64,000 bases of DNA, taken from positions 74,950 to 138,949 of IMG/VR virus record IMGVR_UViG_3300045988_118866. One strand, 5' to 3'. Position numbers and translations under genes: made by a program. Every line of letters begins with the position of its first letter. Position 1 is the stretch's first letter. This document shows, piece by piece, positions 22,556 to 64,000 of the stretch. The notes under the pieces are model-generated. The model saw only the letters and a program-made list of their open reading frames with translations, had not been told where the DNA came from and ran no database searches. Source of the stretch: a virus.

Positions 22556-22608
22556 AAAAAAATAAGGGAATGAAACAAAAATAGTTTCATTCCCTTATTT
22601 TTTTTATC
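22556..22608. terminator. bidirectional rho-independent terminator at convergence of early (+) and cargo/late (-) transcription
   Basis: Hairpin aagggaatgaaac-aaaaatag-gtttcattccctt, with an A-run upstream and a T-run downstream. Confidence 0.7.
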
Positions 22609-22907
22609 TATTTAAATAAAAGATTAGTATTATTTATAATTTCTTCACCATAAGTTCCCACCAAATCCGCAATCAATTCTTCTTCTTCTGGTTTTAATGA
22701 AATATCATAGCTAAAAATAGCAGCATGAGTTAATTCATGCGCTAATACTTTTTTTAATTTTTTATTACTAATATTTTCATTAATATAAATTGTTGAAGTG
22801 GGATCATCGCAAGAACCTAAAGTATATATTCCAGAAGGTCGCATTAACATAGGATGATTGGAAGATACTAATAGTATCCTCCAATTCCTATTATTAATAT
22901 TAACCAT
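22608..22907 (-). CDS. ImmA/IrrE-like zinc metallopeptidase (HExxH)
   Basis: LKKVLAHELTHAAIF contains HELTH. The short peptidase domain is typical of ImmA-like antirepressors. TGA immediately upstream in frame. Confidence 0.55.
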   Translation of the reverse strand: MVNINNRNWRILLVSSNHPMLMRPSGIYTLGSCDDPTSTIYINENISNKKLKKVLAHELTHAAIFSYDISLKPEEEELIADLVGTYGEEIINNTNLLFK

Positions 22908-23445
22908 TCATAGATCCAATTTTAGATGCTAAAGCCTAGATTTTCTTCTCCATATAAGAACGTTCATCATTAGAAGCATCTTCAATCATTTCTACTATAT
23001 CAGAACTTAATTCTTGAAGATATTTATCTAACTCTTTTATCTAAACACTCTTATCTTTATGAAGTTCTTTGGCTTCTATGTACATCTTTCTGTGGACGCC
23101 ACTACGGCCTTCTCTGCTATCATGGGTTTCACGAGATTTTCCATTTGTAGGCATCTCATATTCATGCTCATCATAATCATAATCTTCCCAATCATAATCA
23201 TATGTCATAGGTTTATAGATTCTTTTTTTATGAGGAGATTTATATTTTTCAGTATAATAATGTGTGGTTTTAGGTAAATCATTCATAGCTTCAGTAATAG
23301 TACAATAATAAATAGCCTCTTCAAGGTCTTTTATCATATCTATTACTTCGCCCATTTCCTTTGTATCAACACATTCTAAATGAGCCATTTGGCTTTCTAC
23401 TTGAGTTAATAATTGTTTTTTAATTTCTTGGAATTTATCACACAT
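22900..23445 (-). CDS. hypothetical acidic protein (two in-frame TAG)
   Basis: ATG at 23445 follows RBS aaggagg. The frame continues through the TAG at 23041 and another at 22936 to a TAA at 22900. Confidence 0.5.
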
Positions 23446-23458
23446 TTAAAAAACCTCC

Positions 23459-23881
23459 TTATGCCACTCTCTCGATAATTAAACTGGCGTTTTCAACATC
23501 AATAGCCTATGAACTCGTGTTTTCAATACTAATTTGAGTGCAACAACCGCCTAACACATCAAGGAATAAAGCACGTGAAACATTATTAAACTGTCCAGTA
23601 GCCGTAGGAGTAGAAATCATTGTAGAAGTAGTAACTGGCTCTCCATTAATAGCTATAGCCAAAGAAATAGCACCCGCAGTTCCAGTAGTTGGAAGTCCTA
23701 TATTACCTCCAAATGAAATGCGGAAACGAGCTCTGCGTTGACCGTTCGTAAGACCGCGGAGGGTAACTAAACCGCTACCCTCGCGATACATTATGGAACA
23801 GTTTCCAGCAACAGCTGTGTTAGTGAATACTACATTAGAACCAGTAGCAACTGATTGTAAAGCATTAGCCGTTATTTCCAT
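23459..23881 (-). CDS. BclA C-terminal domain-like (C1q/TNF-like) protein
   Basis: Read-through of the TAG at 23507 gives a C-terminus ...LAIAINGEPVTT...ASLIIERVA. This closely parallels the end of the Bacillus exosporium BclA C-terminal domain (...LTIQVNGVPV...ASIIIEKVA). No collagen-like repeats are present. Confidence 0.55.
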
Positions 23882-23902
23882 AATTTAACCTTCTTTCTTC
23901 AA

Positions 23903-24784
23903 TCAGGAATTGCAACCGCATCCTGAACCATATCCACATCCATAGCTAGTATAACTAACACCGGTATAAGGATTAGCAACAATATAAGCGGGAGTTGCTT
24001 TTGGAGACAACTGATCAATAAGATAAGCATTTTGAAGATTTTGAGAAATCTAATTTTTAAGAGTGCTATTTTCACTGGTAAGAGTCTCAATTTTATCTTG
24101 AACAAGGAAGTCAAGAATAGAACGCATATTAGCATTATTGTTGTCAATAATATCACGGACACCATCAACGGTAGCCTGACGATTCTGGCAAGCAATACTA
24201 GCAAGATTGTAATTAAGATCAGCAAAACTAGATTGAATTAACTATTTATTCTCGCAGCAGCATTGAGCATTAGTAGCTGCCATATTACTTAATTGCTGAG
24301 TTAAATTATTAGTATTCTGCATACTTGCTACAGTATCAGCATTAATAGCCTGAGTGATACTAAAAGTATTCTGCATATTATTCATACCCATATTACAGAT
24401 ATCACTCTGTAAAGTGCGAGTATTAGCATTATTAGTTTCAGCAAGATTAGCAAAACCACTTAAAAGATTAGTGTTTACTCCACTAAAACCATTGCAAAGA
24501 CTAGAAGCTAAGCCATTAACCCCAGATTTAAGATCGCTCATGTTAAAACCATAACCGATTTCTTCTCGAGTTGTAGTGCCTTGGAAACCAGAACCATTAG
24601 CACCATTATTACCCCAGCCATTACCGCCCCAACCATTGAAGCAGAATAAGAACAGGATAATAATCCACCATGCTCCGTCTCCCCACATTCCGCCATCATT
24701 ATTACGATAGCCATTTCCAGAAGCCGCAGCAATATCAGATAATGAATAATTCGGCGTGCTCATTGGATAATTGTAATTAAACAT
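23903..24784 (-). CDS. Gly/Asn/Cys-rich protein with one TM segment (exosporium/coat-like or membrane cargo protein)
   Basis: ATG at 24784 follows RBS aagagg. Reads through TAGs at 24242 and 24050 to a TGA at 23903. Hydrophobic AWWIIILFLFCF, repetitive GWGGNGWGNNGANGSG, CCCENK, and a C-terminal GCGYGSGCGCNS. Confidence 0.45.
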
Positions 24785-24810
24785 AACAAAACCTCTTTCT
24801 ATAATTTTAT

Positions 24811-25059
24811 TTATTTAAACCCCATTTGGGACTTAAAACTATTAAACTCTTTATCGAAATTTAAACCTCTTGATTCAAACAAATTACGAGCAAATTTTTC
24901 AATGTCATCGGATTGACCGTTCCGTGCCATTTGTAATAAATTATTGCCCATTGGCGTTCCGCCCATTTGATTTTCAAGCATAGATAAAACTAATTGCTAT
25001 GGATTTTGACCGTTTTTAATCATAGCAATAATTTGCATTGGATTCATTGATTGTGTCAT
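24811..25059 (-). CDS. small hypothetical protein (one in-frame TAG)
   Basis: ATG at 25059 follows RBS aaggagag. 82 aa, MTQSMNPMQIIAMIKNGQNPQQLV... Confidence 0.45.
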
Positions 25060-25071
25060 TTGAAACTCTCC

Positions 25072-25521
25072 TTAAAAATTAAACTGCGGTTTGCTCTCTG
25101 TTGGTTGCTATTGAGCTGGCTAACCCGATTCCTAAGACGGCGCAACCGCGTTATTGGATCCCATGATCTATGCAAATACTTCTTTAATAGAAGTTAAGGT
25201 AGTATTAAATTCTTCTCGTGTTATATAGTCATTATTAGGCTAAGAAGAATTTGGGATTTCTTTTAATTCATACATATTAATAGAAGCTGTTCCATCCATA
25301 TTTATTTGTTTTGTATAAATTCTACGATTAGCATAGTCAGGAAAATAAAAAACTGAACCATCAAAATCTATATTCATAGCTCGAACCTCTTCTAAAGAAG
25401 CAACGGGTCTAATTCGCTATGCAGTATTGTTTTGAATCACAGGTGTAGCAGTTGTTCCATAAATAGGTCTATTATTACCTATTGGATACTACTGCTATGG
25501 ATAACCATAAGTATTCATGTT
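25072..25521 (-). CDS. Gln-rich hypothetical protein (many in-frame TAG in Q-rich runs)
   Basis: ATG at 25521 follows RBS ggaggtaat. TAG codons are interleaved with CAG/CAA, giving PQQQYP and PSQESGQPAQQQPT. Confidence 0.5.
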
Positions 25522-25761: not shown

Positions 25762-26478
25762 ATGAAGGTGATTAAAATTTTTATCGTAGGTGTTTGCGAC
25801 AATAGCGATTAGCAAAATGACTCATTGGAAGAAATAATAAATCAGTATTTTAAAGAATTTAATTTGCCGGGATATGTATATAAATTTACTGATCCTAGAA
25901 AATTAATTGATTCTAATATTGATTATGATGCAATCTTTTTAGGGATTACATTCAAAAAAATGGATGGTATTGAAATAGCTCATCTCTTAAGAACAAATGG
26001 GTATATTGGAAAAATAATTTTTGTTTCCTCTCAAATAAATTATGGAGTAGCTTCTTATGAAGTAAAGGCATTTAACTTCGTCAAAAAACCTGCTAATAAA
26101 GAAAAAATTTTTTCTATTTTACATGAAGTTAGAGAAGAAAAAAGACGTGAATATAAATATTTAGACACTCCTAATGGAGAAGTAAAAATTGATTTGGGTA
26201 AAGTATTATATGCTGATATCCAAAAACGAAATTTGTGTTGCCATTTAGAAAATGAGGTTCTAAATAGTAAAACTTTAAAAACTTCTTTTGAAAATTATAT
26301 AGGAACTTTAGTTTATCATCCAGATTTTGTCTTTATCCCACCAAGTTTAATTATTAATTTAAATCAAATTAAAATAATGAATAAAGACAATTTAACTTTC
26401 AAAAATGGTGAAGTTTTATGCTTTCCTAAAAAAGGCTATGAGGAAATTAATCGACGATGGAAAAATCCATTTAGATAA
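25762..26478 (+). CDS. LytTR-family transcriptional regulator with degenerate (pseudo-)receiver domain
   Basis: ATG at 25762 is in frame with ORF 25825..26478 through the TAG at 25810. N-terminus MKVIKIFIVGVCDNSD... is receiver-like, but the phospho-acceptor position reads FLGI instead of FLDI. The C-terminal LytTR DNA-binding domain reads VKIDLGKVLYADIQKRNLCCHLENE...FIPPSLIINLNQI. Confidence 0.7.
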
Positions 26479-26480
26479 AA

Positions 26481-26525
26481 AAAATAAGGGAGACATTCAG
26501 TTAAGAATGTCTCCCTTATTTTTAT
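26481..26525. terminator. bidirectional terminator (aagggagacattc-agttaa-gaatgtctccctt) between LytTR gene and minus-strand holin-like gene
   Basis: Perfect 13-bp stem flanked by A-run and T-run. Confidence 0.65.
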
Positions 26526-26932
26526 TGTTTTAAATCATCACTTGGAGTACGATAATTATTTACTGTAGACTCGATCTTCTCTTGTAAATATTTATTCAAA
26601 TCACCAAAAGCATTATTCAAATACTCTTTAGCATCATCACTTAAAATGAGCAATACTGCTTGATAAGTTCTCTAAAATGCTTCTTTTTGAGCAGCTTCAT
26701 CAAACTTACCTTGTTCTTTAAGAGAATTTACATAAGTTTGATTGGTGGCAATAACACAATTAGTAATTGTGTCAGTAGCCATTTGCACATATTTATTTAA
26801 AATATCATTATTAGTTTTCTTTTGTAATTCTGCACTTTTTGCTTTAATCCAAATAACTATAAAAGTGGTTAAAGCACCAAGCATAGGAATCAAACATACT
26901 TGGAATAATTGATTAATTAAATTTTGATCCAT
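26522..26932 (-). CDS. small membrane protein, holin-like candidate (one in-frame TAG)
   Basis: ATG at 26932 follows RBS aaaggagat. TM helix LFQVCLIPMLGALTTFIVIWI. Reads through the TAG at 26672 to a TAA at 26522. Confidence 0.4.
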
Positions 26933-26966
26933 AATATTATCTCCTTTTTCTTACAATAAATTTATA

Positions 26967-27941
26967 TTAAATCCAAGCCACGGGGACAGGTGTCCAAGTA
27001 CCTGTGGTAGAAGTTCTATATTTAAAAGTGCCAGTTTTAGCAGTTGTATCTATCCATACTAAAGGAGCAGTTCCAGACGCAGGTTGTGTTGATCCAATAT
27101 AAATAGAATAATCAGTAGTAGTTCCAACTGTAGGAGGAATGGCATTGTCAACGTATTTTTTAGTTACTAAATCCATATCCTGTGTTGGAGTATATGTATT
27201 ATCCATAGTAATTTTGCCATCTTTAGTTAATATATTAGATTTATTTTTATAAATCAAATTCTCGGTAGAAGAATTAATTTTTTCTAAAGCTTTATTTAAT
27301 TCAGTTTGGATACGAACAATATCTTCATCAACATTAACTCCTACTGCTCCTTCAATACCCATTACAGTTAGAAAATCTCCCTACTCACCTTTCCAACCAT
27401 TTAAAGTAATAGTATTACCATTTATAGTATAATTTTCTGTTTCCTAAATCATAATACCATTATAATAAAGAGTAAGAGTACTACTATCACTAAAATTAAA
27501 AGGAATATTAAAAACCGTCTAATCGGCACTAACATCAAAAGTATATTTGTTTATGATTTTTCCAGCAATATCAGCAGGACAAGTAACAGGATATCCAATA
27601 CCATTAATATTTATTACTCCAATTTGTCCTCCAGTATCATCAATATTTTCATAAGATACTTCTGATAATTCTGCTAAATTACGACCATTTTCATCATAAG
27701 TGGCATAATCCGCGTGATCAGTATATAAATTTAATCTTTTATCCGCAGTATCAATATAGAATTTATGAGTATCTTCTGTAAAATAAGCATAACCTTCTTT
27801 GATAGGAGTGGTATCTTTTACTGGTGTAAATAAAGTTTTTCCAGAATCTAAAGATGGAAAGGGTATTTTTCCATTAACCGCTTTCGCATCATAGGTGACT
27901 AATCTATCTGAATCACCTTTTAAAATTTTAAATAGAGCCAT
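26967..27941 (-). CDS. tail fibre-like protein (N-terminal FK.LKG motif; three in-frame TAG)
   Basis: ATG at 27941 follows RBS aaggagtta, with TGA upstream in frame. ORFs 27519..27941 and 26967..27362 join through TAGs at 27519, 27444 and 27381. Fibre-like motif TKKYVDNAI. Confidence 0.55.
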
Positions 27942-27973
27942 CGATCTTCAATAACTCCTTTCTATAAATTAAT

Positions 27974-28012
27974 GGTATAGAATTAAATTAATAATTCTAT
28001 ACCATTTGGTTT
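27974..28012. terminator. symmetric hairpin aatggtatagaatta-aa-ttaataattctataccatt followed by T-rich tract
   Basis: 15-bp inverted repeat between genes 28015..28635 and 26967..27941. Confidence 0.45.
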
Positions 28013-28014
28013 AT

Positions 28015-28635
28015 TTATTCGAGAACAATCCAATAAACATCCAACCCATTACCACCAACAAATCCCTCTAAACGCGCTAAACGCTCCCAAATTTGTTGTA
28101 CTACTTGGCTATCATCAATTACGTAATAATCTTCTTCTTTTACAATAGAATCTAAATTAAGTTTAGAATAAACCTAAAGACTTGCTGGTAATGTATTTAA
28201 ATTATATAATAAATTATTAGAATCTTTTTCTATTTTATAAAAAGTTATCATATAATTCAAAGTGCCAGATTTCTTAGTAGCGCTATAATTTAAAACCCAA
28301 GGAAAAATAATTTTATCTTTATGAGTTAAAGTATCATAATATGGGACTGGATAAATACGTTTTTCATTATCAGCATTAATATACTAAATAATACACATCA
28401 TATTGGTTAAATCCATAGTGTCAAAATATCTATTTATTTCAAAATAAATAATTTCAGCAGCGTGATCGCCTTCAACTGTAATATAACTATTTTCATTATT
28501 AATAGTTCTTGAGTTTAAATCTATCTAAACCAACTTTTCATCTTCGGGAGCTGGAAGAGCAGGATACTTAACTGGAAAATTTTCATCTTGTATTTGATGT
28601 AAAACACTATAATAATCAGTTGGATTAGTTATCAT
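28015..28635 (-). CDS. tail/baseplate-associated protein sharing a paralogous domain with gene 28641..30323
   Basis: ATG at 28635 follows RBS gagggg. Motif TVEGDHAAEIIYFEINRYFD. TAA at 28015. Dense TAG content means no piece appears in the ORF track. Confidence 0.5.
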
Positions 28636-28640
28636 TTATC

Positions 28641-30323
28641 TTACCCCTCAATCTTAAAGGTTCCTGGTTGCGATTTTCTTTCACCCTTCTGGATAATTAC
28701 AGCTCCTTGAGTAATATTTTCATCTACTTCTGTTGAATTATCAGAAGTTGTCTTTAGAGTAGTACCCTACGCATTTTTCCATTGATATTCATAAATACCA
28801 TTGCCTAACTCACTAGTATTAGTGACTGTAACAATATATTTTCCATTCTCAATTTTAACTTTTTCGTCAATGACAGGTTTTAAATTAGTTGGGTCAAAAT
28901 AATTGGTGAAACTAATTGTAGGATAATCTATATTATCTTTATTTTTATAACCATGAACTGATAAAGTATAATTATCCTCTTCAGTTAAAGTTACAGTTTT
29001 TTCAGTGCTAAAATCAGAGCCATTCTTTTTCCAAAGATAAGTACACTGAACGCCTTCATCATTCTATCCAACAGCAGTAATAGTATTAGAAGAACCATAA
29101 TAACATCCATTATCAGGAGAAGGATCAAGAACGATTCTAAAATCTTCACTGATTCCTTCAACAGAAATAGCTAATCCAGCCCATTTAACTTCTTTACTTA
29201 CTTGATTCGCGGTTGCGCCAAACGCGGTGACACTATAGCTTCCACATCCATCAACTTCACAGTATTGAACTTTTAGGTAGAGGTCATTTTTCTTAGCAGT
29301 ATAGTTTTCAAGATTAATATCACTACTACTATTAATATAAGAATCTCCATTTTTAGTAAAATAAGTTAATTTCTCATTGTAGATCATATCTCCACTAAAA
29401 ATACTATTATCTTCAATAATTTTTTTATATTCATAACCAATGCCACTTTTTAATTCAGTATTAGTTCCTCTATAATTACAAATCCATTTATATTCAATTG
29501 TAGTATTATCTGGATTATTTAAAGTATCATTATAAGCTAAAGCATATAATTTATCACCTGTTAAATAAACAGATTTATTGTTTAAAATACTTGTCAAGAA
29601 AGCAACATTATCAGGAACACCAAAACCAGCGGATTTCTTTGAATCAATTAGACTTTCTAAGTATCCAGTCAAATAATCAACAGGTTGCGCGGTAACTAAA
29701 TCTTCATCAATATCTAAAGTTTTATTAATAACCATTTGCGCTGGTAATGTATTAAATACATACATTAAATTATTATTATCTTTTGGATTCTTTTTAAAGA
29801 AAATAATAGAAAACTATAAAGTACCAGATTCACTAGTCACTTCATCACTAATTTGCCATCCAAAAATTAATTTTCCAGCAGTACCAATATCAGGACAAAT
29901 AGCTTCAGAATAACCTTGAACTTGATCGTTTAAATAATACTGAATATAAATCTTAATATCATCAGCCGCCAAATCTTGTAAATCAAAATATCTATCAATT
30001 TGAAAATAAATTGTTTCCGCCAAATGATCGTTTTCAACAGTAAGTAATTGTGTTTTTCCAAATTCTTTAGTTAATTCAATTTGACGAGTATCAGCATTTA
30101 TATTTATAATAGGTTCATCTAAAGGTATACGAAGAACAGATGGATCTAATTTCTTCATTTGAACGATACCAGTGATATTACTATAATAGTCTTCAATAGA
30201 TTTTATTTCAACGATTTTTCCATTAATGTTTTTTATTGAGTTATCTTTAGCTAAAGTATTGATTTTCTTTTGAAGTTCTTCCCATTTAGCTTGTTCGATA
30301 ACGCTATCATTTTTAACTATCAA
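28641..30323 (-). CDS. tail/baseplate structural protein (about 560 aa)
   Basis: TTG start at 30323, 8 nt after RBS aaaggaaga. ORFs 29814..30323 and 29064..29765 are joined by the TAG at 29814. The frame continues to a TAA at 28641. Motif TVENDHLAETIYFQIDRYFD. Confidence 0.55.
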
Positions 30324-40104: not shown

Positions 40105-40220
40105 TCTTTTTCACTCCTTTAAATATCAGCCCAAGAAACAGTTTGTTCAACTGCTTCAACACGAGTTACCAAATTATCAGGACCTTTATCTACTAAATAT
40201 TTATTAGCTATATTAATTGT

Positions 40221-40700
40221 TTCAATATCTCCCTAAGTTAATGTTCCTACTGGCATATCAATCCATGTACCAGCATCGGTAAGAATATGTTTTCCTTTAG
40301 TTTCGTGTAAAGAAACTGGGACTAAGCCTGGAACTGTACCCTTAAAAACAGGAGCTAACTTAGCTAAATTTTCTTCCGTAGATAATTTTTCAACAATAGA
40401 ATTAATTAAAGTCTCATTATTTTCTAAACCCTAATTAACCCATTTTTTTTGTTCTTCATCATAAATTAAAACTTGATTTGTTTTAACTTCATTAAGAACA
40501 ATATCACTTAAATCGCTTAACTTACCCGCGGAACTAATTCCACCGCAAATTAGACGACTACCTAAATAAAGTTCTCCAGAAGAATCATTTTCCTCATAAA
40601 TAAAATATAAAGTATCATTGTCTCTTTTAGCCCCTAAACTTTCAAAAGCAGTTTTAGAACCTCTGACAAATTTTACATATTTATTTAATGTATTAGGCAA
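40221..40700 (-). CDS. short tail fibre-like / fibre-assembly protein (159 aa)
   Basis: TTG at 40700, 6 nt after RBS agaaaggag. N-terminus KFVRGSKTAFESL...GELYLG is the same motif family as genes 38443..40104 and 26967..27941. TGA at 40221. Confidence 0.5.
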
Positions 40701-40750
40701 GATAATCGACTCCTTTCTATTATTTATAAAATCTTTTTAATCAATACTAA

Positions 40751-40780
40751 AAGGGTTTGGCCTATTAAGACCAAACCCTT
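40751..40780. terminator. hairpin aagggtttgg-cctattaaga-ccaaaccctt
   Basis: 10-bp GC-rich stem directly after the TAA (40789) of gene 40789..43059. Confidence 0.55.
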
Positions 40781-40788
40781 TATTTAAA

Positions 40789-43059: not shown

Positions 43060-43061
43060 TA

Positions 43062-43406: not shown

Positions 43407-43419
43407 TTAGTGGTCCTCC

Positions 43420-48595: not shown

Positions 48596-48596
48596 T

Positions 48597-48773
48597 TTAT
48601 CCCTCCTAATTATTTTCGTTATTCTTCTCCTCTTGAAGATCTACTAATCTATTCGTAAAATCTCTTAGTTGTTTTAAACACTCTCCCATAAGAATAGTAT
48701 CTTCTCCTTTAGTTGTTACTAAAGAGAGAGTATTATATAAAACCTTTAAAAAATTAATATCTCTTTCATTCAT
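48597..48773 (-). CDS. small hypothetical protein (58 aa)
   Basis: ATG at 48773 follows RBS aaaggagaaaaagg. One TAG; TAA at 48597. Confidence 0.35.
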
Positions 48774-48790
48774 TTTCCTTTTTCTCCTTT

Positions 48791-51700: not shown

Positions 51701-52240
51701 TCCATAATTACCACTAACTATACCGAGCGTTTCAAGCCAGGCACGAAAATCGGCGCGCAGCCCCAACCGCGTAAATCCCTATTGCTCATCAGTAAAAGTA
51801 ATTCCACCTTTTAGAGTAATCTCAATTTCTTTTTCACTACCATTGGCTAAAATACTCCAAACCTCTTTATTATTATCTTTAGCAACAAAAAAGTTTCCAG
51901 TTAAATCAATAAAAGTATTAAAAGGATTAACAAAATTATATGGCTTATCTTCATTTTTATCAGTCTTTTTACCAACAATAAATTTAGTGCTATTATAGTC
52001 TCCTTTTGGAATCTATACATACACTTTATCATCTTTGTTGTAAGTGGTTATTTGGGAATAAGCATAAAATTCCGCATAAGATTCGTTTTTAACCTTATAC
52101 TTACCAATAAGTTTATCAGTCGCGTCAATAATAGTACATTCAATAGTGCTATCAAATTTAACTTTATCAACACTTGAATTAGCAATAATACTCATTGCTT
52201 GACATAAACTTTCTTGAATATTTAGTGCGTTATCAGCCAA
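48791..52240 (-). CDS. large tail structural protein (1149 codons) immediately downstream of tape measure
   Basis: TTG at 52240, 6 nt after RBS aaaggaggg, with TGA upstream. Scanned open to the TAA at 48791. Contains pieces 52013, 51278, 50492 and 49967. A local GC-rich stretch at 51721-51780 encodes LGLRADFRAWLETLGI. Confidence 0.55.
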
Positions 52241-52322: not shown

Positions 52323-52362
52323 AAGGGTGAAGCCTATAAGACCTCACCCTTAATTTTATTTT
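52323..52362. terminator. hairpin agggtga-agcctataagacc-tcaccct with flanking A/T runs after tape measure gene
   Basis: 7-8 bp GC stem followed by TAATTTTATTTT. Confidence 0.5.
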
Positions 52363-52448
52363 CTATTGGCATACTGAGAAGCTACATTAACTAATGTATT
52401 AAATGCTTCTTGAATTTCGTATCTATCAGTAGCGTTCGGGAAACTAGC

Positions 52449-55400: not shown

Positions 55401-58400
55401 CGCGACTTGAATTGTTTCTGGGACATCAGTATATCCAGATATAGAAGATGTCTAAGTTGAGGAGATTATATTATGATAATCATCATATTCAATATCATCT
55501 AATTTAGTTAATACTTTTGGCTTTCTGCTTGTAATAGTCTTTTCACTTACATCAACATCAGCAGTTAGTCCCATTTGGCTAAGAGTACTATTCATTTCTT
55601 CAACAGACATATTAGTAGCCATAGCCATTTCATTTAATGCATTAACCCAATTATTAGCAGCGTCAGTTCCTCCAGATAGAATTTCTTCTAATCCTTTACC
55701 CGTTAAGTCTTGACCTTCTGCAAGTTTAGCAGAAATTTCATCTAGACCATTTAGAATAATTTCTTTATTATTTTGAAAATTACGGATATATTCTGGTAAA
55801 ATACCTTCATCTTCATTATCACCATAAGTCATGGTAAAATTTTTTTCCGCATCATTAATTTCCATTAAATCAACTGTGGTCTTTGCTACAGCGATACCCA
55901 ATTGGTTAATGGCATCAGTACTACCTTGAGCAGCCTAATTAATTAATTCTAAGTTATCAGCAGAATCGAAAAATTCATCAGGTAATTCTAAATCTTCTGA
56001 AGCACCAGTTAAATCAGCAATAGTTTTAGTTAAATCTTGGATTGTATCAGTATATTCTTTAGTTAATTTTTCTTTATCATCGATTTGACTTTTCTTTAAA
56101 ACAGAATTCCAATTTTCCCAATTGTCACTTAAGTCCTTAACACCATTATTCATTCGCTGATTGGCAATAGCAAGTTTAGTCGCTTCAACTTCAGTTAAGT
56201 CATAAGCTTTCTAAATTCGTTTAGCCTAATCTTCAATATCATCAGCGTCTAACCCATATTTCTAAACAGCATTTTCAGTTAAAGAAGCGACTTCCTACTG
56301 AGCTTTTTCTTCTTCACTTAAAGTATTAACTAAATCTCTTATAATATCTTCTTGCTCGCTCGCTGTTTGATTTACATCAAACATTGCTTCAAGGGCTTGT
56401 CTTGTAGTTTCATCTTCTAAATCCATAGTTTGAACCAAATCATTTAAAAGAGAAATGTCTACATCAGAATTAATATTAGAAGAAATATCTTCACCTAAAG
56501 TATTATTTAAATCTTCTCTAGTAGATTTTTCGGCATCATTTTTAGCCTAAGCACTAGCAATTGCTTCAGCCATTTCTTCAACAGAAATGGTTACTTTATT
56601 ACCATCATCATTATAATACTCAAAAACGCGATTATCTCCACTACCTTGAACTGCATTACTTGTTAAATTATAATTATATCCAGTGGCATCTAAATATTGT
56701 TGCCAATAATCTTTTACTGTATTATTATTTCTTCCAGCCCACTTGGTAAAATCAGTCTTTAAGCCATTTAAAGTAATTCTCTTTTGTTTGGCATAAGCAG
56801 AATCAAAAGTATTAGTAAAATCATTTGCCTATTCATCTGTTATATTATCGCCAAGAACTTGTTTAGATAATAATTTACCAGTATTATCAACCTAATTTCC
56901 TGTTTCTTTAGCATTTCTACCTAATTCTTTTAAATTATCAGAGCATCCCTTTAAAGCGTTAGTAAAATCATTTAAAGAAGTGCCAAGACTTATATTATCA
57001 AATTGCTTAGCATAATCTTCAAAAATTCCATCAATATTTTGAATACCATCAGGAGAATTTATAGTATTTACAATTGCATCAACCATTTCTCCTGCCACTT
57101 TTTTATTTTCCGCATTAGATTCGCCATTAGTGCTATATTTAGATACCACAGAATAAACCTAATTAACCGCTTCTTTTCTATTGGACTAATATTCCATCTA
57201 ACTAACCGCGGCCTAACTGGCCAAAGCAGCTGCCTAAGCGTTATTAGATTTATCACGTTTATCGGCTATAAAAGAGTCAATAGCTTCTTGATTAAATGTA
57301 CCATCTTTATTAAAAAGATTGTCCATTTTAGCTAATTCAGGATAAGTTTCAAGAATATTCCAAATCTATTCATTTACATTTGATAAGGCTTCTTTCCACT
57401 CATCAGTCCCTTTAGTACATTCATTTAATGTATCTATCGCAGTCTAATATTGATCGAAAGCGGAAATAATATTATTTAATTCAGTTTTTGTCTATTGAGA
57501 TTTTTCTTTCAAATTCTCAGCAGCTTCAGTAGCTCTTTGAAGACTTTCTGCTTCAGCATTTGCTGCCTTAGAAACAGCATATAAAGTTCCAATAACTACA
57601 GCACTAATAGCAACAGTAGCAAGAAAAGTTTTATTAGTAACTAATTTAATTGCTCTATTTTTTATTTCTGCTAAAGTATTTTTTTCTACAGCAAGAGTTT
57701 CTTCTTTTTTCTTAGCAGTAAGAATTGTCTAAATAACTATAGCAGCTTCTTCCGTATCAGTGATACCTTTTTGAGCTAATTCATTAAGAACTTTTACTCT
57801 AGTATTTTCATCAGTTGCTAAAGTGTCCTTATTTTTCATTATAATGTCAGTAACCGTTGCAATTACATTTTCACCATAGGTCTAATTTAATTTTTCCATT
57901 GCAGCTTTAGAAGCAAGAATACTTCCTATAAAACCAGACGGACCAAGAACACTACTTACAGTCTAAAAACTATAAACTAAATTTGGTAAAATTAAACCTA
58001 ACTAAGTAAATGTAGCTAATAGTTTATCTCCAAAAGATATATCGGTATCATTTAAAGTATTTATTAATCCTTTAATAGAAGTTAATGCCATACCAAAATT
58101 AGCTATTCCATTAATAGAAGCCGAAAAGGCTGAACCAAGAGTCTAGGATTCGCCCTGCGCGGTTTTAAACCAATCTCCTAACGATTTTGTCGCATTAATT
58201 AATCTCTATTCATCTTCAGTTAAATCTGCAGTGGCATTACCTAAATTATTATAAGAATCAACCATAGCCATAGCCATTTTCATAGCATCTTGAGTTTTAA
58301 ATCCACACTATTCTAATGTTGTAGTTAATCTTTTAATAGAATTAGTATCATCTAATCCAGTTAAAGCATCTCTAAAATCTTGAAGAGTAACATCTCCTTT

Positions 58401-60569
58401 GTTTAAAAGAGTTATTAAATCTCTAATTTTCTAATTATTTGTTTCAAATCCTAAATCTTGCTTATTTATATCTTTCTCTTTTTCATATAACTAATTTAAA
58501 ATTTCTCTAATTTTAGCTAATCCTTCAATCTAGAACTGTTTTTCATCAACAATTGGGATAGAAGATAATTTATAAACTAAATTAGCATATTCTTGAGCTG
58601 CTTTTTTAGCTCCTTCAAAAGTGGTAATTGCAGTTTCTGTTTTATAGGCACTATTAGGATCATCCTAATAAGTTCTATGAGCCATCATTTCTGCCATAAT
58701 AGAATAACGCTTATTTAATGTTTCCATTTCTTTCTAAGCTAATTCTACTTCTTCACCACGTTTAATAACGCTTTGTACTAATAAATTATGCTAATCTAAT
58801 AAGGTTGAAGCAATTTGTTTTTCTTTTTCACTTAACTTATCAGCATTCTCAATAAGCATTAACTAAGCGGTAGATTGTTCTGAATAAGCCATATTCATTG
58901 CTTTTCCAGAAGTAGTATTTTTATTTCCTGATAAAATAAGACTTTCATTAGCTTGCTTTTTTAATTCTTCAATATCATTTTTAATTGTCCCAAATTTTAA
59001 TCCTAAATTATAAAACCAGTTATCAAAAGAAGTAGTTAATTCTTTTGAAAAAACTTTTGACATTGTAGAACCAATTAAAAGTAACATACCAGGCATTCCA
59101 CCTAAGCTCTATGATACATTACCTATTATGTCTAAAACAGAGCTAAATCCATTTGTTAAATCAATAAAGAAATTATCATCTAATAAAGCAGCATATATTT
59201 TTTGTGCTGAAGCTTTTACTCTATCTCCCGCAGCTTCCCAAGACTCAGCATAAATATCCGCCTGTTCTTGAAGAGATCCATCAGCACCCTATGCTCTGGC
59301 AAGATTTTCTTTATAATAATCAAAATGATCCATCAAAGCAATTAATTGAGTATATTGACGAACACCCGCAACCTATTGTGCTAAAGCTACTTGCTAATCT
59401 TTATCAATACTCTACCATTTATTACCCATTTCTTCGATGATATTATTCATATCTTTTAATTTGCCATTAGAGTCTTTAATATTAATTCCAACTTTTTCAA
59501 GAGCTTGTGAATATTGATTTAATGTAGTGCCATCTTCAAGAGTTTCACCAAGCTTTAAACCTTGAATACGAGCAAAAATAGTTTTTAAAGCAGTACCTAC
59601 AATATCTTCACTTTGACGAGTAGTAGCAGTAATAGTAGCTAAGGCCGCGGCCGCGTTATCAAAACTTAAACCAATCGTATTGGCAACAGCAGCAAACTTT
59701 TCGAGACCGCCAGCAATTTCATCAGAGCTGGATGAGGTATCTGCACCTAAGCGTACCATAGCATCAGCATAATGCTCTAATGACTAACTCCCGTTATAAA
59801 AGTTATTCCAAACAGCAGTCATTTGATCTGAAACTATTTCAGCACTTTCACGAGCTACATTTGCCATTTTAATGGTAATATCAGTGCGTTCTTTTACCTA
59901 TTCATCATTTAAACCCTACTGATAATAAATTAAAGCAGCGTCAGTATATTCAGTAGTAGTTGTGCTTAAAGCTTTGGCCGCTATATTTGCCTATTTAGCA
60001 AATTTAGCCATCTAATCAGTAGTCTATCCAGTAACAATACGAATATTATTTAAAGATTCGTTTAAATCTTGAGCGTATCCATAAGCAGTCTATAAAGACC
60101 CCATAAACCCATGTAAAATACTAGAGGAAATTTGCCAACGCGCGGTATTTGCTAAAGTAGTCCCAAATTCTTTTAATAAAGAATTAGTTCTTCTTAAAGG
60201 TAATTCCGCCTGTGTAATAGAAGTTGCTAAATTAGCAAATGCTTTTTCACCTTCTGGACCCAATAAGCTTAAACTTTTCTGATATTCTTTAAGGGAAACT
60301 CCACCCTATTTTAAAGTCTAATTAAATTTACTAAGATCTAATTTACCTGTATTAACATCAGTTGCTTGCTATAACTAAGTTTTTAATTGTGCAGTTAATT
60401 GAATTGCGCCCTATATATCTTTAGAAATTCCTAAACTAGCATCAGTTTTTATAGAATTTGCCATTAGATTATTTAGCTAATTTTGTAAATCCTATAATTG
60501 CTGTTGAGCCTATTTAGAATCAGCAGTAAATTGTAAATTAACCTAATAACTATTTAATTGTTTAGCCAT
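52449..60569 (-). CDS. tail tape measure protein, 2706 codons with about 70 in-frame TAG
   Basis: ATG at 60569, 5 nt after RBS gaaaggagat, with TAA upstream. I scanned the frame manually with no TAA/TGA until the TGA at 52449. Eight ORF-track pieces from 59412..59759 down to 52623..52898 lie in this frame. The sequence is coiled-coil-rich (e.g. EYEKELAEKLAELD, QAAEDAVYRETTYQQERAL), typical of TMPs. Confidence 0.7.
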
Positions 60570-60691: not shown

Positions 60692-61225
60692 TTAGCCCAA
60701 TTTAGTAAGCACATCTTTCAACAAAGCCATATTATCTGGATCATTTAACTTCTTTTGAATATCTGTCGCATCCAAATCTAAATTACTATAATCCGCGGAA
60801 ATTGCTTCCATAATACCCATTGCAGAATTGCGGTATAACACAATATTATTAGCCATCTCGTGAGTCGTTTTATTTAAATAATAAAATTCTCCATCAGGCA
60901 CAAGACCAATAATAAGATTAAGCACTTTAGAAGCATTAAGCATATCATAAAGCTTCATTGGATCTTCTTTTTGCTTTTCAGTAAATGAAATATTACTATA
61001 AGCATAAACAATCTCTAAGCCAAGATTCATATCCAGCTTTAAAAGATTATAATATCCAGTATTTTCATCTACTGAATTATTCAATACACGAGTAATTAAT
61101 TCACTCTTTTCCGCAATGGGAAGATATTGCTTTACCTCAATAGTCTAATCATTATATTCAACAGTTTGAACTTTATTAAGTTCATCCTTAGTGATTCCTA
61201 ATTTATTATATGAAATTTTAGCCAT
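60692..61225 (-). CDS. tail assembly chaperone-like protein (177 aa) by position upstream of TMP
   Basis: ATG at 61225, 6 nt after RBS aaaaggagg. TAG at 61145; TAA at 60692. Assignment is by synteny only. Confidence 0.4.
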
Positions 61226-61285
61226 AATTAGCCTCCTTTTACTCTTTATTATATTATACAAAAAATTTTTTATTTAGTCAATTTT

Positions 61286-62389
61286 TTAGAGATTCTAAAA
61301 TTTACTTTGATTAATTCTAATACGTCCATACAAAGCTTTTTCCCAACTTATATCCCCATTAAAATAATCATCGTCAATATTATCAATAAGTTCTTTTACT
61401 ACAGTTATAGTTGGAATAACTTTAATTACTCCATTTAAATTCAATACTAAAAATTTAGTATAATTACCACCAATCAATTTATTCAATACAGTATCTACAT
61501 AATTAGATTTTCCGCCTGTTAATTCATAAATTGCTCTTAATCTATAAAAATATTTAGGAGCGTCAGGGTGTTCTTTAGGATAGTGTCTCTATTTACAACC
61601 TAACATACGATAATATCTTTGTATTTTGCTAGAAGCTCCACCAAGAGGAATCATAGTCATAAAAACGCGGAAAGGATTTGTTGATCCTAACTCAATCTAA
61701 GTATTAGACATATAATTTTTTGCAGTAAAAGTAGCATTTAATAAAGCATCGTAAAGATCCTCGTCTATTTGATAATGAGAATTCTACTATATAGTATAAG
61801 TTTGCTATATCCCTATAATATCAGTTTTACCTGATACTCCTCTCATTGTCGAAATAGAATTCTAAACGTCTTTTTTAATCTAATCTCCTGCTTTTTTATA
61901 TATATCGCCCATTAAATTCTTAATATCATCATCAATATTTTTAGATAAATCAATAACATTAACTTGCCCGGTTCCAGCTTTTTTACTTGCACTTGTAATA
62001 GTCATGCTTTTATTACCTGCAAAATAATTTTCCGCTGTTGCCACTGCTTCGGCCACTACATTTTCAAAATATTTACCACGAGAATCATTGTTATCCAAGT
62101 TTTTAGGAATATTAAATAAAAAATTCATTGAAGAAAATAAATCTGGATTAATCTATTCTAAAGAATCTAATAATTCTGCCATCTGAGCATCTTGAATTAC
62201 ATTTCCTTGTTGCCGGTTTTGAATACTTCTAAAAAATTCTTCAAGCTTTTTTGCTTGCTTCTCTTGAGTTCCTCTTGCATGCAACTTTTGACTCATACTT
62301 CTTTTTGTATAATCATAGGATTTTTTTAAAAAATCCTAAGTATTCATTTCTCGCGGACTCGCCTTAATACTTCTCTATAATGAATTCAT
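61286..62389 (-). CDS. hypothetical tail-module protein (367 aa, about nine in-frame TAG)
   Basis: ATG at 62389 follows RBS aaggaggatt. Scanned open to the TAA at 61286. Contains pieces 61880..62128 and 61295..61486. Confidence 0.45.
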
Positions 62390-62417
62390 AAATCCTCCTT
62401 TTTCACATAACAAAAAA

Positions 62418-62447
62418 ATGGGAGAGAATATTTCTATTCTCTCCCAT
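62418..62447 (-). terminator. hairpin atgggagagaata-tttc-tattctctcccat
   Basis: 13-bp perfect stem directly after the TAA (62451) of the Lys-rich small gene. Confidence 0.5.
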
Positions 62448-62450
62448 TAA

Positions 62451-62636
62451 TTAATCTTTTTTATCTAATTCAGATAAAATCTTACTTACCTCATCTTCCT
62501 CTTGAAAAACTACTTCCTCAACAGGTTTAATAGGCTCTTTCTTTATTACAGCCTTTTCTACTTTTGGCTGCTTTTTAGTAGATTCTTTTTTAGGCTGTTT
62601 TGGTGGAGTATATTTTACTGGACCTTTTACAACCAT
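62451..62636 (-). CDS. small Lys-rich protein (61 aa)
   Basis: Intact ORF with TAA stop. KPKK-rich sequence. Confidence 0.4.
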   Translation of the reverse strand: MVVKGPVKYTPPKQPKKESTKKQPKVEKAVIKKEPIKPVEEVVFQEEDEVSKILSELDKKD

Positions 62637-62641
62637 ATCAA

Positions 62642-63625
62642 TTAGCCCCCAATAACAGTGGTGCTATTAGCAGCGGTCTTTCTACGAATATCGTTGTCAA
62701 CAGTTTCGTCTTCTTCAATAATCTGAATAGCAGCCAAAACTTTCTTACTATGATCGAAACGAGTATAATCAGGGAATGCGTCCATAGTAAAGGTGAAAGT
62801 GGAAGGATCACCAGAAGAAGCCATTGTGAAGTTAAAGTTAGACTGAATCTTACAGTTAGGAATAATAAATTCAGCAGGCATATCTACACCATCTTGATTA
62901 CGGAATAAAGTAGAAGCTTCAAGATAATAGTTACCACCAAATTTATCGGCAGTAATTTCAATCTACTTAGCCCCAGATTCACGCTCAGTGTAGTAATCAA
63001 CCATTACAGAGTCGCATTTAGCATAATCAGCTTCCAAATCATTAGCGGTATAAGCTGCTCCAGTAGCACGATCAAATCCTTTTACGGTAACACTAAAACC
63101 GGCGTCTCCCTCAGCAACTCCTTCGTGTGCTAAATAAGGCTCAGAAATAATTTCGCCATCTTTCATAAAGAAAACATAAACATAGTCATCATCTTTATGC
63201 TCTTTATCAAGATAAGGAGCATAAGAAACAGGGATAATCAAACCATCTGTCTTAATTTCTTTCTTATCATTGGCAGGGACAATATCTTTACTCTTATCAA
63301 CAGTTTGAGTAACATGTTGCTTAATCTTATTATCAGGAGAAGCCTCAACAAGACCAGCACCGGAAAGAATCATGAAACCTTCAGGAGAAATAAGAGCATC
63401 TTCCATTGTGAAGGTAACAGTACGCTCGCCTTCCCATGCGACTAAGTTAGTATTACCACGACCACCCTGTGCGTATACGGTAGTAGCAGCGCCTTCCATA
63501 CTGGAAGTCTTTAAAGTGTCGAAATAAATAACTGGCTCATTCTTATAAAATTGCTTATTACCAATCTTTTGATTAGCCTTTGCCTTTAAAACGACATCGC
63601 AAATTTCGCGTACACCAAATTTCAT
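62642..63625 (-). CDS. major tail (tube) protein-like, 327 aa, one in-frame TAG
   Basis: ATG at 63625 follows RBS aaggaggaaaaaaacct. ORFs 62963..63625 and 62642..62881 share a frame and are joined by the TAG at 62963. TAA at 62642. Gene order is tube, then chaperones, then TMP. Confidence 0.45.
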
Positions 63626-63649
63626 AGGTTTTTTTCCTCCTTAAAAAAT

Positions 63650-64000
63650 TTAATGGATATTTTTCATCCAGTTATCCGGCTTGTTATCAGGCTTTGCGCC
63701 TGCCAATCTAGACCGGATATCAATATCCCAATTAATATAAAGTTGATATCTTTCAACAAGGTCATAGAGTTGGAACATTGTTAAATCCATTAAATCCTGT
63801 AAAGACATTGAATCAAGACCTACAGTAAGCATTGAAAGATACTAACTAAATATACTAGCATTAGCCGTGCCGTTTAATTCAGCGACACGTTGTCTACCTC
63901 GCATTAATTTATCGGCTATCTTTTTCGCGGCCGCATTTCCAGGATTAAATCCCATTTCTTGCGAAGCATTAGATTTAAAACAAAATATTTCTTTAATATA
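63650..64000 (-). CDS. partial structural gene (C-terminal part; N-terminus beyond window)
   Basis: Open frame running in from the window edge through the TAG at 63842 to a TAA at 63650. Confidence 0.35.

What the first reader, a model, noticed from the sequence alone, without database searches (positions are those of the whole stretch)
22608..64000. Genome-wide reassignment of TAG (amber) to a sense codon, most likely Gln (code 15-like)
Wherever an ORF-track frame ends in TAG, the very next codons continue an obviously coherent protein in the same frame, and the next real stop is TAA or TGA. DnaB (3194..4726) has two TAGs, the DHH phosphoesterase six, NrdD one, and a RuvC-like gene that is invisible in the ORF track has three. 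On the minus strand, 40 kb of apparently shattered ORFs fuse into about 20 genes. Two of these are uninterrupted for 8121 nt and 7695 nt in an AT-rich genome where random TAA/TGA would occur every few dozen codons. TAG sits inside Gln-rich runs next to CAA/CAG (PQQQYP, PAQQQPT at 25072..25521), which points to Gln rather than another amino acid. This matches the class of stop-codon-recoded phages known from gut metagenomes, but it has to be established for this particular genome.
Basis: seen in the sequence. Interest (0 to 1): 0.9.

Follow-up and report, generated by a model that had tools for sequence, protein, structure and literature searches.

The report
Gut phage reads TAG as glutamine
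This window is part of a ~194 kb human-gut phage that uses the amber stop codon TAG as a glutamine codon, mostly in its late structural genes. The phage carries its own TAG-reading tRNA, so this is a real but already well-described kind of phage recoding.

Summary

- **ORF fusion.** With TAG read as sense, the shattered minus-strand ORFs fuse into 22 genes, including products of 2737 and 2564 aa. The longest TAA/TGA-free run is 2745 codons, against 198 or fewer in shuffles.
- **TAG distribution.** All 22 late genes carry in-frame TAG (204 TAG, 16.6 per 1000 codons). Only 9 of 24 early genes do (19 TAG, 2.8 per 1000). Every gene ends in TAA or TGA.
- **Gln identity.** In related phages, 100 of the window's TAG sites can be aligned. 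The codons that replace TAG are mainly CAA (21 sites) and CAG (14 sites), and never TAA or TGA. A likelihood test picks Gln over Lys by 39 ln units.
- **Suppressor tRNA.** I read another part of the same source contig (ENA ERZ5855999 scaffold_11, 194,410 bp). A tRNA with anticodon CUA lies about 54 kb upstream of the window. It has no encoded CCA and is followed directly by a minimal HDV-like ("theta") ribozyme.
- **Relatives.** The replication module is SPbeta-like.

This matches published code-15 gut phages (Borges et al., Peters et al., phAss-1, theta ribozymes). It is a new member of a known kind. The amino acid has not been shown by proteomics, and the tRNA's charging identity is unresolved.

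The parts
2893..3204 (+). YorH-like early gene, 1 in-frame TAG (3181)
   Evidence: The tblastn alignment to SPbeta YorH runs through the TAG. The TAG is conserved in 5 related strains.
3194..4726 (+). DnaB-type replicative helicase (YorI-like), 2 in-frame TAG (3260, 3368)
   Evidence: Pfam DnaB N-domain residues 13-96 span both TAG, and DnaB_C also matches. It is 37% identical to SPbeta YorI. Both TAG are conserved in 5 strains.
6687..8435 (+). DHH/RecJ-like exonuclease (YorK-like), 6 in-frame TAG
   Evidence: Pfam DHH, DHHA1 and RecJ_OB match across the TAG positions. It is 36% identical to SPbeta YorK, which has Q,E,E,N,N,Q opposite the TAG. All 6 TAG are conserved in 5 strains.
10374..11567 (+). 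PIF1/RecD-like SF1 helicase, 1 in-frame TAG (11010)
   Evidence: Pfam AAA_30 and UvrD_C_2 lie on either side of the TAG.
17135..19405 (+). Anaerobic ribonucleotide reductase NrdD, 1 in-frame TAG
   Evidence: The phmmer alignment to PDB NrdD chains passes through the TAG. That column is Q in 1h78 (T4) and 9d3x, and M in 8p23.
19402..20469 (+). Two ORFs downstream of NrdD (19402-19896, 19909-20469), 1 in-frame TAG each
   Evidence: Their function was not tested.
21535..22047 (+). RuvC-like resolvase, 3 in-frame TAG
   Evidence: Weak Pfam RuvC match (E 0.0035).
22125..22553 (+). Last plus-strand gene, with a predicted N-terminal hydrophobic segment, 3 in-frame TAG
   Evidence: There is no convincing family match.
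22587..25518 (-). Six small late genes: 22587-22907, 22900-23445, 23459-23881, 23903-24784, 24811-25059, 25072-25518. They carry 1, 2, 1, 2, 1 and 8 in-frame TAG.
   Evidence: The last gene holds the YPqQqYP and GqPAQqQPT runs.
25762..26478 (+). Response-regulator receiver + LytTR gene on the opposite strand inside the late block, 1 in-frame TAG
   Evidence: Pfam Response_reg 1.6e-8 and LytTR 0.0075.
26522..30323 (-). Four late genes: 26522-26932, 26967-27941 (tail-fibre-like), 28015-28635, 28641-30323. They carry 1, 3, 3 and 3 in-frame TAG.
   Evidence: phrog_2710 (tail fibre) matches the second gene weakly.
30630..38324 (-). 2564-aa late structural protein, 34 in-frame TAG
   Evidence: 7695 nt with no internal TAA or TGA. 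The other two frames hold 125 and 415 TAA/TGA.
38443..43406 (-). Four late genes: 38443-40104, 40119-40700, 40789-43059, 43062-43406. They carry 1, 1-2, 8 and 1 in-frame TAG.
   Evidence: The first two appear to use non-ATG starts.
43420..52195 (-). Three large tail/baseplate-type genes: 43420-45726 (768 aa, 11 TAG), 45704-48595 (963 aa, 15 TAG), 48791-52195 (1134 aa, 23 TAG)
   Evidence: phrog_32343/phrog_1887 (tail) and phrog_30026 match across TAG positions.
52356..60569 (-). Tape-measure protein, 2737 aa, 72 in-frame TAG
   Evidence: Homologous to SPbeta YomI. There are 0 internal TAA/TGA, against 134 and 411 in the other frames. Most TAG-to-CAA/CAG exchanges between strains were seen here.
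60692..61225 (-). Late gene, 177 aa (phrog_30570), 1 in-frame TAG
61286..62389 (-). Strain-variable late gene, 367 aa, 11 in-frame TAG
   Evidence: It does not align in most related loci.
62642..63625 (-). Virion structural protein (YomU-type, phrog_2729), 1 in-frame TAG (at 62965)
   Evidence: The PHROG match (1.4e-55) spans the TAG. At this codon 12 of 13 relatives have CAG.
63650..63955 (-). Late gene next to the window end, 1 in-frame TAG

Best explanation
**What it is**
The window is 64 kb of a ~194 kb tailed phage from the human gut, with an SPbeta-like replication module. In this phage UAG is a sense codon, most probably glutamine.

**How it works**
- The phage supplies its own decoder, a 73-nt tRNA with anticodon CUA. 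It sits at the 3' end of a tRNA array about 54 kb upstream of the window, on the same strand as the early genes.
- The tRNA gene has no CCA and is fused at its 3' end to a minimal HDV-like (theta) ribozyme.
- Inferred: the ribozyme cuts off the 3' trailer, and host enzymes then add CCA and charge the tRNA.
- Once the suppressor is abundant enough to outcompete host release factor 1, the TAG-containing genes can be translated in full. These are every late structural gene in the window and a minority of replication genes.
- TAA and TGA remain the only stop codons.
- The six-fold enrichment of TAG in late genes fits the published model that recoding delays or gates late-gene expression.

**Shown versus inferred**
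- Shown here: TAG is in frame, conserved and sense-like. It exchanges with CAA/CAG between strains. The tRNA(CUA) and the ribozyme-like element are present in the same genome.
- Inferred: Gln charging, ribozyme cleavage, competition with RF1 and the timing role.
For: **TAG behaves as a sense codon**
- ORFs fuse only when TAG is read as sense. The longest TAA/TGA-free run is 2745 codons, against 198 or fewer in shuffles.
- Domains span TAG positions.
- TAG positions are conserved across strains.

**TAG behaves as Gln**
- Nucleotide alignments over 52.9-64 kb give these counts. Opposite window TAG, relatives have TAG 403, CAG 37, CAA 36, AAA 19 cells. Where relatives have TAG, the window has CAA 53, CAG 16, AAA 11.
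- Protein-guided alignments of 100 TAG sites show TAG at 95 sites, CAA at 21, CAG at 14, AAA at 9 and GAA at 8. TAA and TGA never appear.
- The likelihood ranking is Gln -236.0, Lys -275.2, Glu -279.3.
- The NrdD TAG column is Q in 2 of 3 PDB homologues.

**TAG distribution**
- All 22 late genes carry TAG (16.6 per 1000 codons). Among early genes 9 of 24 do (2.8 per 1000). Stops are TAA 36 and TGA 10.

**Suppressor tRNA and ribozyme**
- The source contig itself holds a tRNA(cta) at L294 2695-2767.
- The same locus holds a CUA tRNA in all 14 metagenome loci that reach it, and in 6 further 55-194 kb ENA contigs.
- An HDV-like ribozyme match starts at the base after the tRNA: RF02682, 27.7 bits, E 6.6e-4 for the 96-nt stretch, core ACCUCCUCGUGGU, P4 reduced.

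**Published precedent**
10.1101/2021.08.26.457843; PMC9523058; PMC10607447; PMC10879173.
Against: - No peptide evidence exists.
- The isotype of the tRNA(CUA) could not be assigned. Its nearest neighbours among 236 phage tRNAs are a mix of Cys, Tyr, Gly and Trp.
- Against the standard-code phage SPbeta, the 24 aligned TAG columns hold E 7, Q 3, N 3, K 3. This fits Gln but does not prove it.
- Some strains carry a 90-nt long-variable-arm CUA tRNA at the same locus. In bacteria that architecture is typical of Ser, Leu and Tyr tRNAs.
- Most Bacillota lack GlnRS and make Gln-tRNA indirectly (established knowledge). How a CUA anticodon would be accepted there is unexplained.
- DnaB and RecJ-like genes also need suppression, so a clean early/late code switch does not hold here.
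- The ribozyme match is below Rfam's gathering score (27.7 against 44).
Confidence: 0.9

Rival explanations
1. TAG is a sense codon but codes for an amino acid other than Gln (Glu, Lys, Ser, Tyr or Trp), or for different amino acids in different strains.
For: - SPbeta has E more often than Q opposite TAG.
- The isotype of the tRNA is unresolved.
- A long-variable-arm allele of the suppressor exists in some strains.
- Kienbeck et al. predict non-Gln isotypes for about 30% of ribozyme-linked suppressors (PMC10879173).
Against: - Between strains TAG exchanges mainly with CAA/CAG (35 of 98 site-level alternatives, next K 9 and E 9).
- The Gln profile beats every other amino acid by at least 39 ln units.
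- The NrdD column is Q in 2 of 3 structures.
- TAG sits inside runs of CAA/CAG.
Confidence: 0.05
2. The host itself reads TAG as sense, so the phage simply mirrors its host's code, as code-25 phages do with Absconditabacteria.
For: - Replication genes (DnaB, RecJ-like, NrdD) also contain TAG.
- Relatives are binned into MAGs labelled Mollicutes or Tenericutes.
Against: - TAG is six-fold depleted in early genes, and 15 of 24 early genes have none.
- The phage carries its own tRNA(CUA).
- As far as I know, no bacterium with TAG = Gln has been described.
- The MAG labels most likely reflect mis-binned phage contigs. One such 'MAG' contig is a 164 kb phage contig.
Confidence: 0.03
3. TAG is still a stop. 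The late genes are either pseudogene debris or are expressed by rare read-through.
For: None, beyond the table-11 ORF picture.
Against: - There are 72 and 34 in-frame TAG with no TAA or TGA over 8.2 and 7.7 kb.
- The TAG positions are conserved, and replaced only by sense codons, in dozens of independently assembled genomes.
- Essential genes are affected (tape measure, portal and terminase in relatives).
- Rare read-through cannot pass 72 stops.
Confidence: 0.01
4. Sequencing or assembly artefact, for example systematic C-to-T miscalls that turn CAG into TAG.
For: TAG and CAG differ by a single C/T.
Against: - The same TAG positions recur in assemblies from many studies and countries.
- CAG codons coexist with TAG in the same genes (44 CAG in late genes).
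- A matching suppressor tRNA is encoded.
Confidence: 0.005

Closest known systems
Stop-codon-recoded (genetic code 15, TAG to Gln) gut phages: Borges et al. (bioRxiv 10.1101/2021.08.26.457843), Peters et al. (PMC9523058)
   Same: - In-frame TAG is concentrated in structural/late genes and variable in replication genes.
- The phage encodes a tRNA(CUA).
- The host is presumed to use the standard code.
- It comes from human gut samples of non-westernised populations. The Peru (Matses) data set that yielded this contig was part of the Borges survey.
- The ~194 kb genome size resembles their large Firmicutes-infecting clades, such as Sapphire.
   Different: - I could not place the terminase in their tree, so clade membership is unproven.
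- Here every late gene in the window has TAG, and DnaB, RecJ-like and NrdD also have it.
- No release-factor or aaRS gene was found in the parts I read.
Phage phAss-1 / proposed Phassvirus (OQ749652; PMC10607447), NCBI 'Caudoviricetes code 15 clade'
   Same: - TAG to Gln recoding.
- Suppressor tRNA(CUA) genes inside a large tRNA set.
- A very long tape-measure gene.
- SPbeta-type RecJ-like, PolIII-alpha and NrdD genes.
- Human gut origin.
   Different: - Only about 35% protein identity (DHH) and no nucleotide match.
- Its genome is 136 kb against 194 kb here.
- In phAss-1 two of its three suppressors sit next to nrdD. Here the window's nrdD region has no tRNA.
Theta (minimal HDV-like) ribozymes attached to phage suppressor tRNAs (Kienbeck et al., PMC10879173)
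   Same: - A tRNA(CUA) without encoded CCA.
- It is followed at the next base by an HDV-like core with reduced P4.
- It occurs in a code-15 phage.
   Different: - The ribozyme lies outside the window.
- The match is below Rfam's gathering score.
- Cleavage is untested.
- About 90% of their predicted hosts are Bacteroidota, whereas this phage looks Bacillota-associated.
SPbeta-like phages (Spbetavirus; Bacillus phage SPBc2 NC_001884)
   Same: - Syntenic replication module yorF-yorG-yorH-yorI(DnaB)-yorJ-yorK(RecJ)-yorL(PolIII alpha).
- Homologous tape measure (YomI) and a YomU-type virion protein.
   Different: - Only 24-39% protein identity.
- SPbeta uses the standard code and is a 134 kb temperate Bacillus phage without this tRNA array.

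Membership tests
Code-15 (TAG to Gln) recoded phage | In-frame TAG in many genes, including essential ones. Reading TAG as sense restores full-length ORFs that end in TAA or TGA. | tested here: met
   There are 223 in-frame TAG in 31 of the 46 early and late genes counted. The longest ORF is 2745 codons, against 198 or fewer in shuffles.
Code-15 (TAG to Gln) recoded phage | TAG columns correspond to Gln in homologues. | tested here: met
   Relatives show CAA at 21 sites and CAG at 14 of 100 TAG sites, with no TAA or TGA. Gln is best by 39 ln units. NrdD has Q in 2 of 3 PDB chains. SPbeta alone is inconclusive.
Code-15 (TAG to Gln) recoded phage | Phage-encoded suppressor tRNA with anticodon CUA. 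| tested here: met
   Found in the same contig, outside the window, at L294 2695-2767. Also found in 20 related contigs.
Code-15 (TAG to Gln) recoded phage | The suppressor is of glutamine isotype and is charged with Gln. | tested here: inconclusive
   The tRNA has U1 with a mismatched 1-72 pair and G73. Nearest-neighbour comparison gives no isotype. tRNAscan-SE isotype models were not available.
Code-15 (TAG to Gln) recoded phage | Peptides with Gln at TAG positions. | not testable with these tools
   This needs (meta)proteomics, as in PMC9523058.
Sapphire clade of Borges et al. | Placement by large-terminase phylogeny. | not tested
The terminase of relatives lies at L158 7792-9531.
Sapphire clade of Borges et al. 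| About 200 kb genome, TAG recoding, Firmicutes host, gut of non-westernised people. | tested here: inconclusive
   Size is 194,410 bp and the sample is from Peru. TAG recoding is met. The host is only hinted at by SPbeta-like genes and by MAG and NCBI labels.
Phassvirus (phAss-1 group) | Nucleotide similarity and synteny with phAss-1 (species in the proposed genus share about 80-86% identity). | tested here: not met
   No megablast match to any GenBank phage. DHH is about 35% identical.
Spbetavirus | Close sequence relationship to SPbeta. | tested here: not met
   Only 24-39% protein identity despite a syntenic replication module.
tRNA-associated theta ribozyme | A minimal HDV-like fold whose cleavage site abuts a tRNA 3' end. 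| tested here: inconclusive
   RF02682 scores 27.7 bits (gathering score 44), with E 6.6e-4 locally. It starts one base after the tRNA, and P4 is reduced to 1 nt. Self-cleavage is not testable here.

The most novel reading that the evidence does not exclude
The suppressor is a swappable cassette. Near-identical phages carry three structurally different tRNA(CUA) genes at the same locus, all fused to the same downstream ribozyme. The forms are a 73-nt form, a 90-nt form with a long variable arm, and a third 73-nt form. If these are charged differently, for example the long-arm form with Ser, Leu or Tyr, then TAG would mean different amino acids, or be ambiguous, in strains of one phage species. 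In addition, the replication genes DnaB, RecJ-like and NrdD need suppression. The code change would then have to act from early in infection rather than as a late switch.
Probability: 0.1. Interest if true: 0.6.

Novelty: new member of a known kind. Interest (0 to 1): 0.3.

Why it matters
**Practical use.** This genome and its many 160-197 kb relatives in IMG/VR and ENA must be annotated with table 15. Under table 11 the whole structural module looks like junk, and some of these contigs are currently filed as Mollicutes or Clostridium MAGs.

**Biology.** It adds a well-documented case of a Bacillota-associated, SPbeta-like large phage to the code-15 phages, with three features:
- every late gene in the window is TAG-gated;
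- a ribozyme-linked suppressor tRNA lies in the same genome;
- the suppressor varies between strains as alternative alleles.

It does not change current understanding of phage recoding.

Tried and rejected
- **tRNA and RNA scans of the window.** ARAGORN and the Rfam gathering scan found nothing. A relaxed ARAGORN run gave only low-score calls inside coding DNA, which I treated as false.
- **Nucleotide search.** Megablast of 7.5 kb and 20 kb of the window against GenBank phages found no match.
  - A table-11 fragment is not on record.
No broad HMMER survey of the tape measure was therefore done.
- **Walking the genome in 10 kb steps.** This used all 8 viral-contig scans and the single metagenome scan.
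  - The first tRNA cluster reached (Thr, Ser, Ser, Leu, Gly, Lys, Met, Cys) has no suppressor.
  - The regions around portal and terminase have no tRNA.
- **False positive.** 'tRNA-SeC(tca)' calls in L261, L267 and L294 lie inside an ORF and fold poorly. I rejected them.
- **Isotype of the suppressor.** Nearest-neighbour comparison was uninformative.
- **Release factors.** A search for the GGQ motif in all fetched DNA gave 0 hits. About 30-40 kb of the genome was never read.
- **Literature.** A search for the sample name found nothing useful. The published Nature Microbiology version of Borges et al. is not held.

Full report
**1. The observation**

The window is AT-rich (30.4% G+C).

Under table 11 the minus strand from 22.6 kb to the end is a field of short ORFs. 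If TAG alone is read as sense, stop-to-stop ORFs of 2745, 2565, 1155, 986, 774 and 760 codons appear. Treating TGA or TAA as sense does not give this result.

The two giant genes have no internal TAA or TGA in frame:
- 52356-60569: 2737 aa, 72 in-frame TAG
- 30630-38324: 2564 aa, 34 in-frame TAG

Their other two frames carry 125-415 TAA/TGA each. The longest TAA/TGA-free run in 20 shuffles of the window is 198 codons.

So are the Gln-rich runs in the gene at 25072-25518. The 7695-nt figure is exact. The 8121-nt figure should be 8214 nt from the ATG.

Pfam and PHROG matches run across TAG positions. Examples are the DnaB N-domain, DHH, RecJ_OB and the phrog_2729 virion protein.

**2. What the window is**

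The window is identical to ENA ERZ5855999 scaffold_11 (194,410 bp; a Peruvian gut sample), positions 97,578-161,577.

The plus-strand genes 1-22.5 kb form an SPbeta-like replication module. It is syntenic with yorF-yorG-yorH-yorI-yorJ-yorK-yorL at 26-39% protein identity, followed by NrdD and a RuvC-like gene.

The minus-strand genes are the tail module. They include the tape measure (homologous to SPbeta YomI), a YomU-type virion protein and several large proteins with tail-related PHROG matches. In relatives, the head, portal and terminase genes follow just beyond the right edge of the window.

There is no nucleotide-level relative among GenBank phages. IMG/VR and ENA hold dozens of relatives of 160-198 kb.

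**3. TAG behaves as a conserved sense codon, and as Gln**

All ten TAG in the first 11 kb are conserved in the related strains that align there; nine were covered in five strains and one in a single strain (94-98% identical).

Nucleotide alignments to 13 relatives cover 52.9-64 kb:

| Comparison | TAG | CAG | CAA | AAA | TAA/TGA |
|---|---|---|---|---|---|
| Opposite window TAG, relatives have (cells) | 403 | 37 | 36 | 19 | 0 |
| Where relatives have TAG, window has (cells) | not counted | 16 | 53 | 11 | 0 |

Other sense codons are rare in both directions.

Protein-guided alignment against all fetched loci covers 100 window TAG sites. Relatives show TAG at 95 sites, CAA at 21, CAG at 14, AAA at 9 and GAA at 8. 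TAA and TGA never appear.

I compared the replacement profile of TAG sites with the profiles of the 20 amino acids in the same alignments. The log-likelihoods are Gln -236.0, Lys -275.2 and Glu -279.3.

A clear single case is codon 62965 in the virion protein. It is TAG in the window and CAG in 12 of 13 relatives.

Evidence from standard-code homologues is weaker but consistent:
- SPbeta has E 7, Q 3, N 3, K 3 and others at 24 aligned TAG columns.
- The NrdD TAG column is Q in T4 NrdD (HQYGG) and in 9d3x (SQYGG), and M in 8p23.

**4. Distribution of TAG**

| Gene set | Genes | Codons | In-frame TAG | Per 1000 codons | Genes with TAG | TAG share of CAA+CAG+TAG |
|---|---|---|---|---|---|---|
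| Early (plus strand) | 24 | 6798 | 19 | 2.8 | 9 | 8% |
| Late (minus strand) | 22 | 12,321 | 204 | 16.6 | 22 | 36% |

Stop codons are TAA 36 and TGA 10.

In a relative, the major capsid protein and three neighbouring genes have no TAG, while portal and terminase have 8-10 each.

So the recoding is genome-wide in the sense that both modules use it. It is nevertheless strongly biased to late genes, as published for other recoded phages (10.1101/2021.08.26.457843).

**5. The decoder**

The window has no tRNA. I walked around the genome of relatives in 10 kb steps.
- The flanks of the window, the gyrase region and the terminase region have no tRNA.
- A first tRNA cluster roughly 50 kb upstream in a relative has no suppressor.
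- Beyond a block of tail-fibre-like genes lies a ~10 kb array of about 20 tRNAs. Its last members are a tRNA with anticodon CUA and a tRNA-Tyr(GUA).

I then obtained the same region of the source contig itself (L294 = scaffold_11 41,069-47,617). It holds tRNA(cta) at 2695-2767, which is contig position 43,763-43,835. This is on the plus strand, about 53.8 kb upstream of the window.

The gene lacks CCA. It is followed at once by GGTGCTAAAAACAAAACCTCCTCGTGGTAGCAC. In the near-identical locus L268 this sequence matches the HDV-like ribozyme model RF02682 from its first position, with the conserved ACCUCCUCGUGGU core and P4 reduced. The score is 27.7 bits, below the gathering score of 44, with E 6.6e-4 for the 96-nt stretch. 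This is the arrangement described for theta ribozymes on phage suppressor tRNAs (PMC10879173).

No class-I release-factor motif occurs in any DNA I fetched. About 30-40 kb of the genome was not read.

**6. What stays inferred**

The amino acid rests on codon evolution, not on peptides. The isotype of the tRNA could not be assigned.

Three different CUA tRNAs occupy the locus in different strains, one of them with a long variable arm.

The host is unknown. The available hints are:
- SPbeta-like genes;
- MAG labels such as Clostridium, Agathobacter and 'Mollicutes', probably from mis-binned phage contigs;
- one neighbouring protein labelled Dialister succinatiphilus in NCBI.

**7. Comparison with what is known**

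TAG-to-Gln recoding in gut phages is established:
- It has been predicted for many clades.
- It has been verified by metaproteomics for crAss-like phages (PMC9523058).
- It has been described for the distantly related phAss-1 group, for which NCBI has a 'code 15 clade' taxon (PMC10607447).

Borges et al. surveyed the very Peruvian data set this contig comes from. They describe ~200 kb TAG-recoded phage clades, found mainly in non-westernised guts where Firmicutes-infecting recoded phages are more abundant. Membership of their Sapphire clade is plausible but untested.

The finding is therefore correct and well supported, but it is a new member of a known kind.

Noticed in passing
window 25762-26478 (+): A response-regulator receiver + LytTR DNA-binding gene sits on the opposite strand in the middle of the late (minus-strand) structural block. 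It has one in-frame TAG. A two-component-type regulator in this position is unusual for a phage.
   Followed up: partly
window 61286-62389 (-): A 367-aa gene with 11 in-frame TAG lies between the tape-measure-side genes and the virion protein. It does not align in most related phages. It looks like a strain-variable cassette with no family match.
   Followed up: partly
L261-L276 and L281-L286 (suppressor locus; in the source contig L294 2695-2767): Three structurally different tRNA(CUA) alleles occupy the same locus in closely related phages. One is 73 nt, one is 90 nt with a long variable arm, and the third is also 73 nt. All are followed by the same conserved ribozyme-like sequence.
   Followed up: partly
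L149 10888-11027 (relative IMGVR_UViG_3300045988_118370): The tRNA-Lys(UUU) gene carries a 68-nt insert in its anticodon loop. The insert itself folds as a reduced tRNA-like molecule ending in CCA; relaxed ARAGORN calls it tRNA-Arg(tct). Other strains have the uninterrupted tRNA-Lys.
   Followed up: partly
L149 8845-9670 and 9684-9812: In some strains tRNA-Leu(UAA) is interrupted by a 736-nt insertion in the anticodon loop (possibly an intron). Just downstream is a full-length match to RAGATH-33 RNA (124.5 bits, above the gathering score).
   Followed up: no
L294 3001-3549 (source contig) and L260 1-330: The ORF between the suppressor tRNA and tRNA-Tyr reaches a TAG that lies inside the tRNA-Tyr gene. 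Databases call it as 120, 130 or 182 aa depending on the code used. One 120-aa form is named a Dialister succinatiphilus protein in NCBI. TAG may act as the real stop here.
   Followed up: no
L018 3995-6716 and 8670-9251 (relative, just right of the window): The major capsid protein and three neighbouring head genes have no in-frame TAG, while portal (10), terminase (8) and others do. This would fit avoidance of TAG in the most highly expressed late genes.
   Followed up: no
L001 276-2473; L005 1-1794; L006 1-2054: gyrB, upstream of the window, is one gene in some strains. In others it is split into a 594-aa piece and an 84-aa C-terminal piece, sometimes with a GIY-YIG endonuclease gene between or beside them. 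This suggests a mobile intron or homing element.
   Followed up: no
L287-L291 (genome contigs): Relatives of this phage are deposited inside MAGs named 'uncultured Mollicutes bacterium' (a 164 kb contig), 'Clostridium sp.', 'Tenericutes', 'Agathobacter sp.' and 'Clostridia bacterium'. They are probably mis-binned phage contigs.
   Followed up: no
contigs IMGVR_UViG_3300045988_122866 and _131075 versus _118370: Two 159-163 kb contigs start and end at nearly the same genomic positions. Relative to the 190-197 kb genomes they lack about 29 kb between the tRNA array side and the terminase side. This is either an accessory region or a recurrent assembly break.
   Followed up: no
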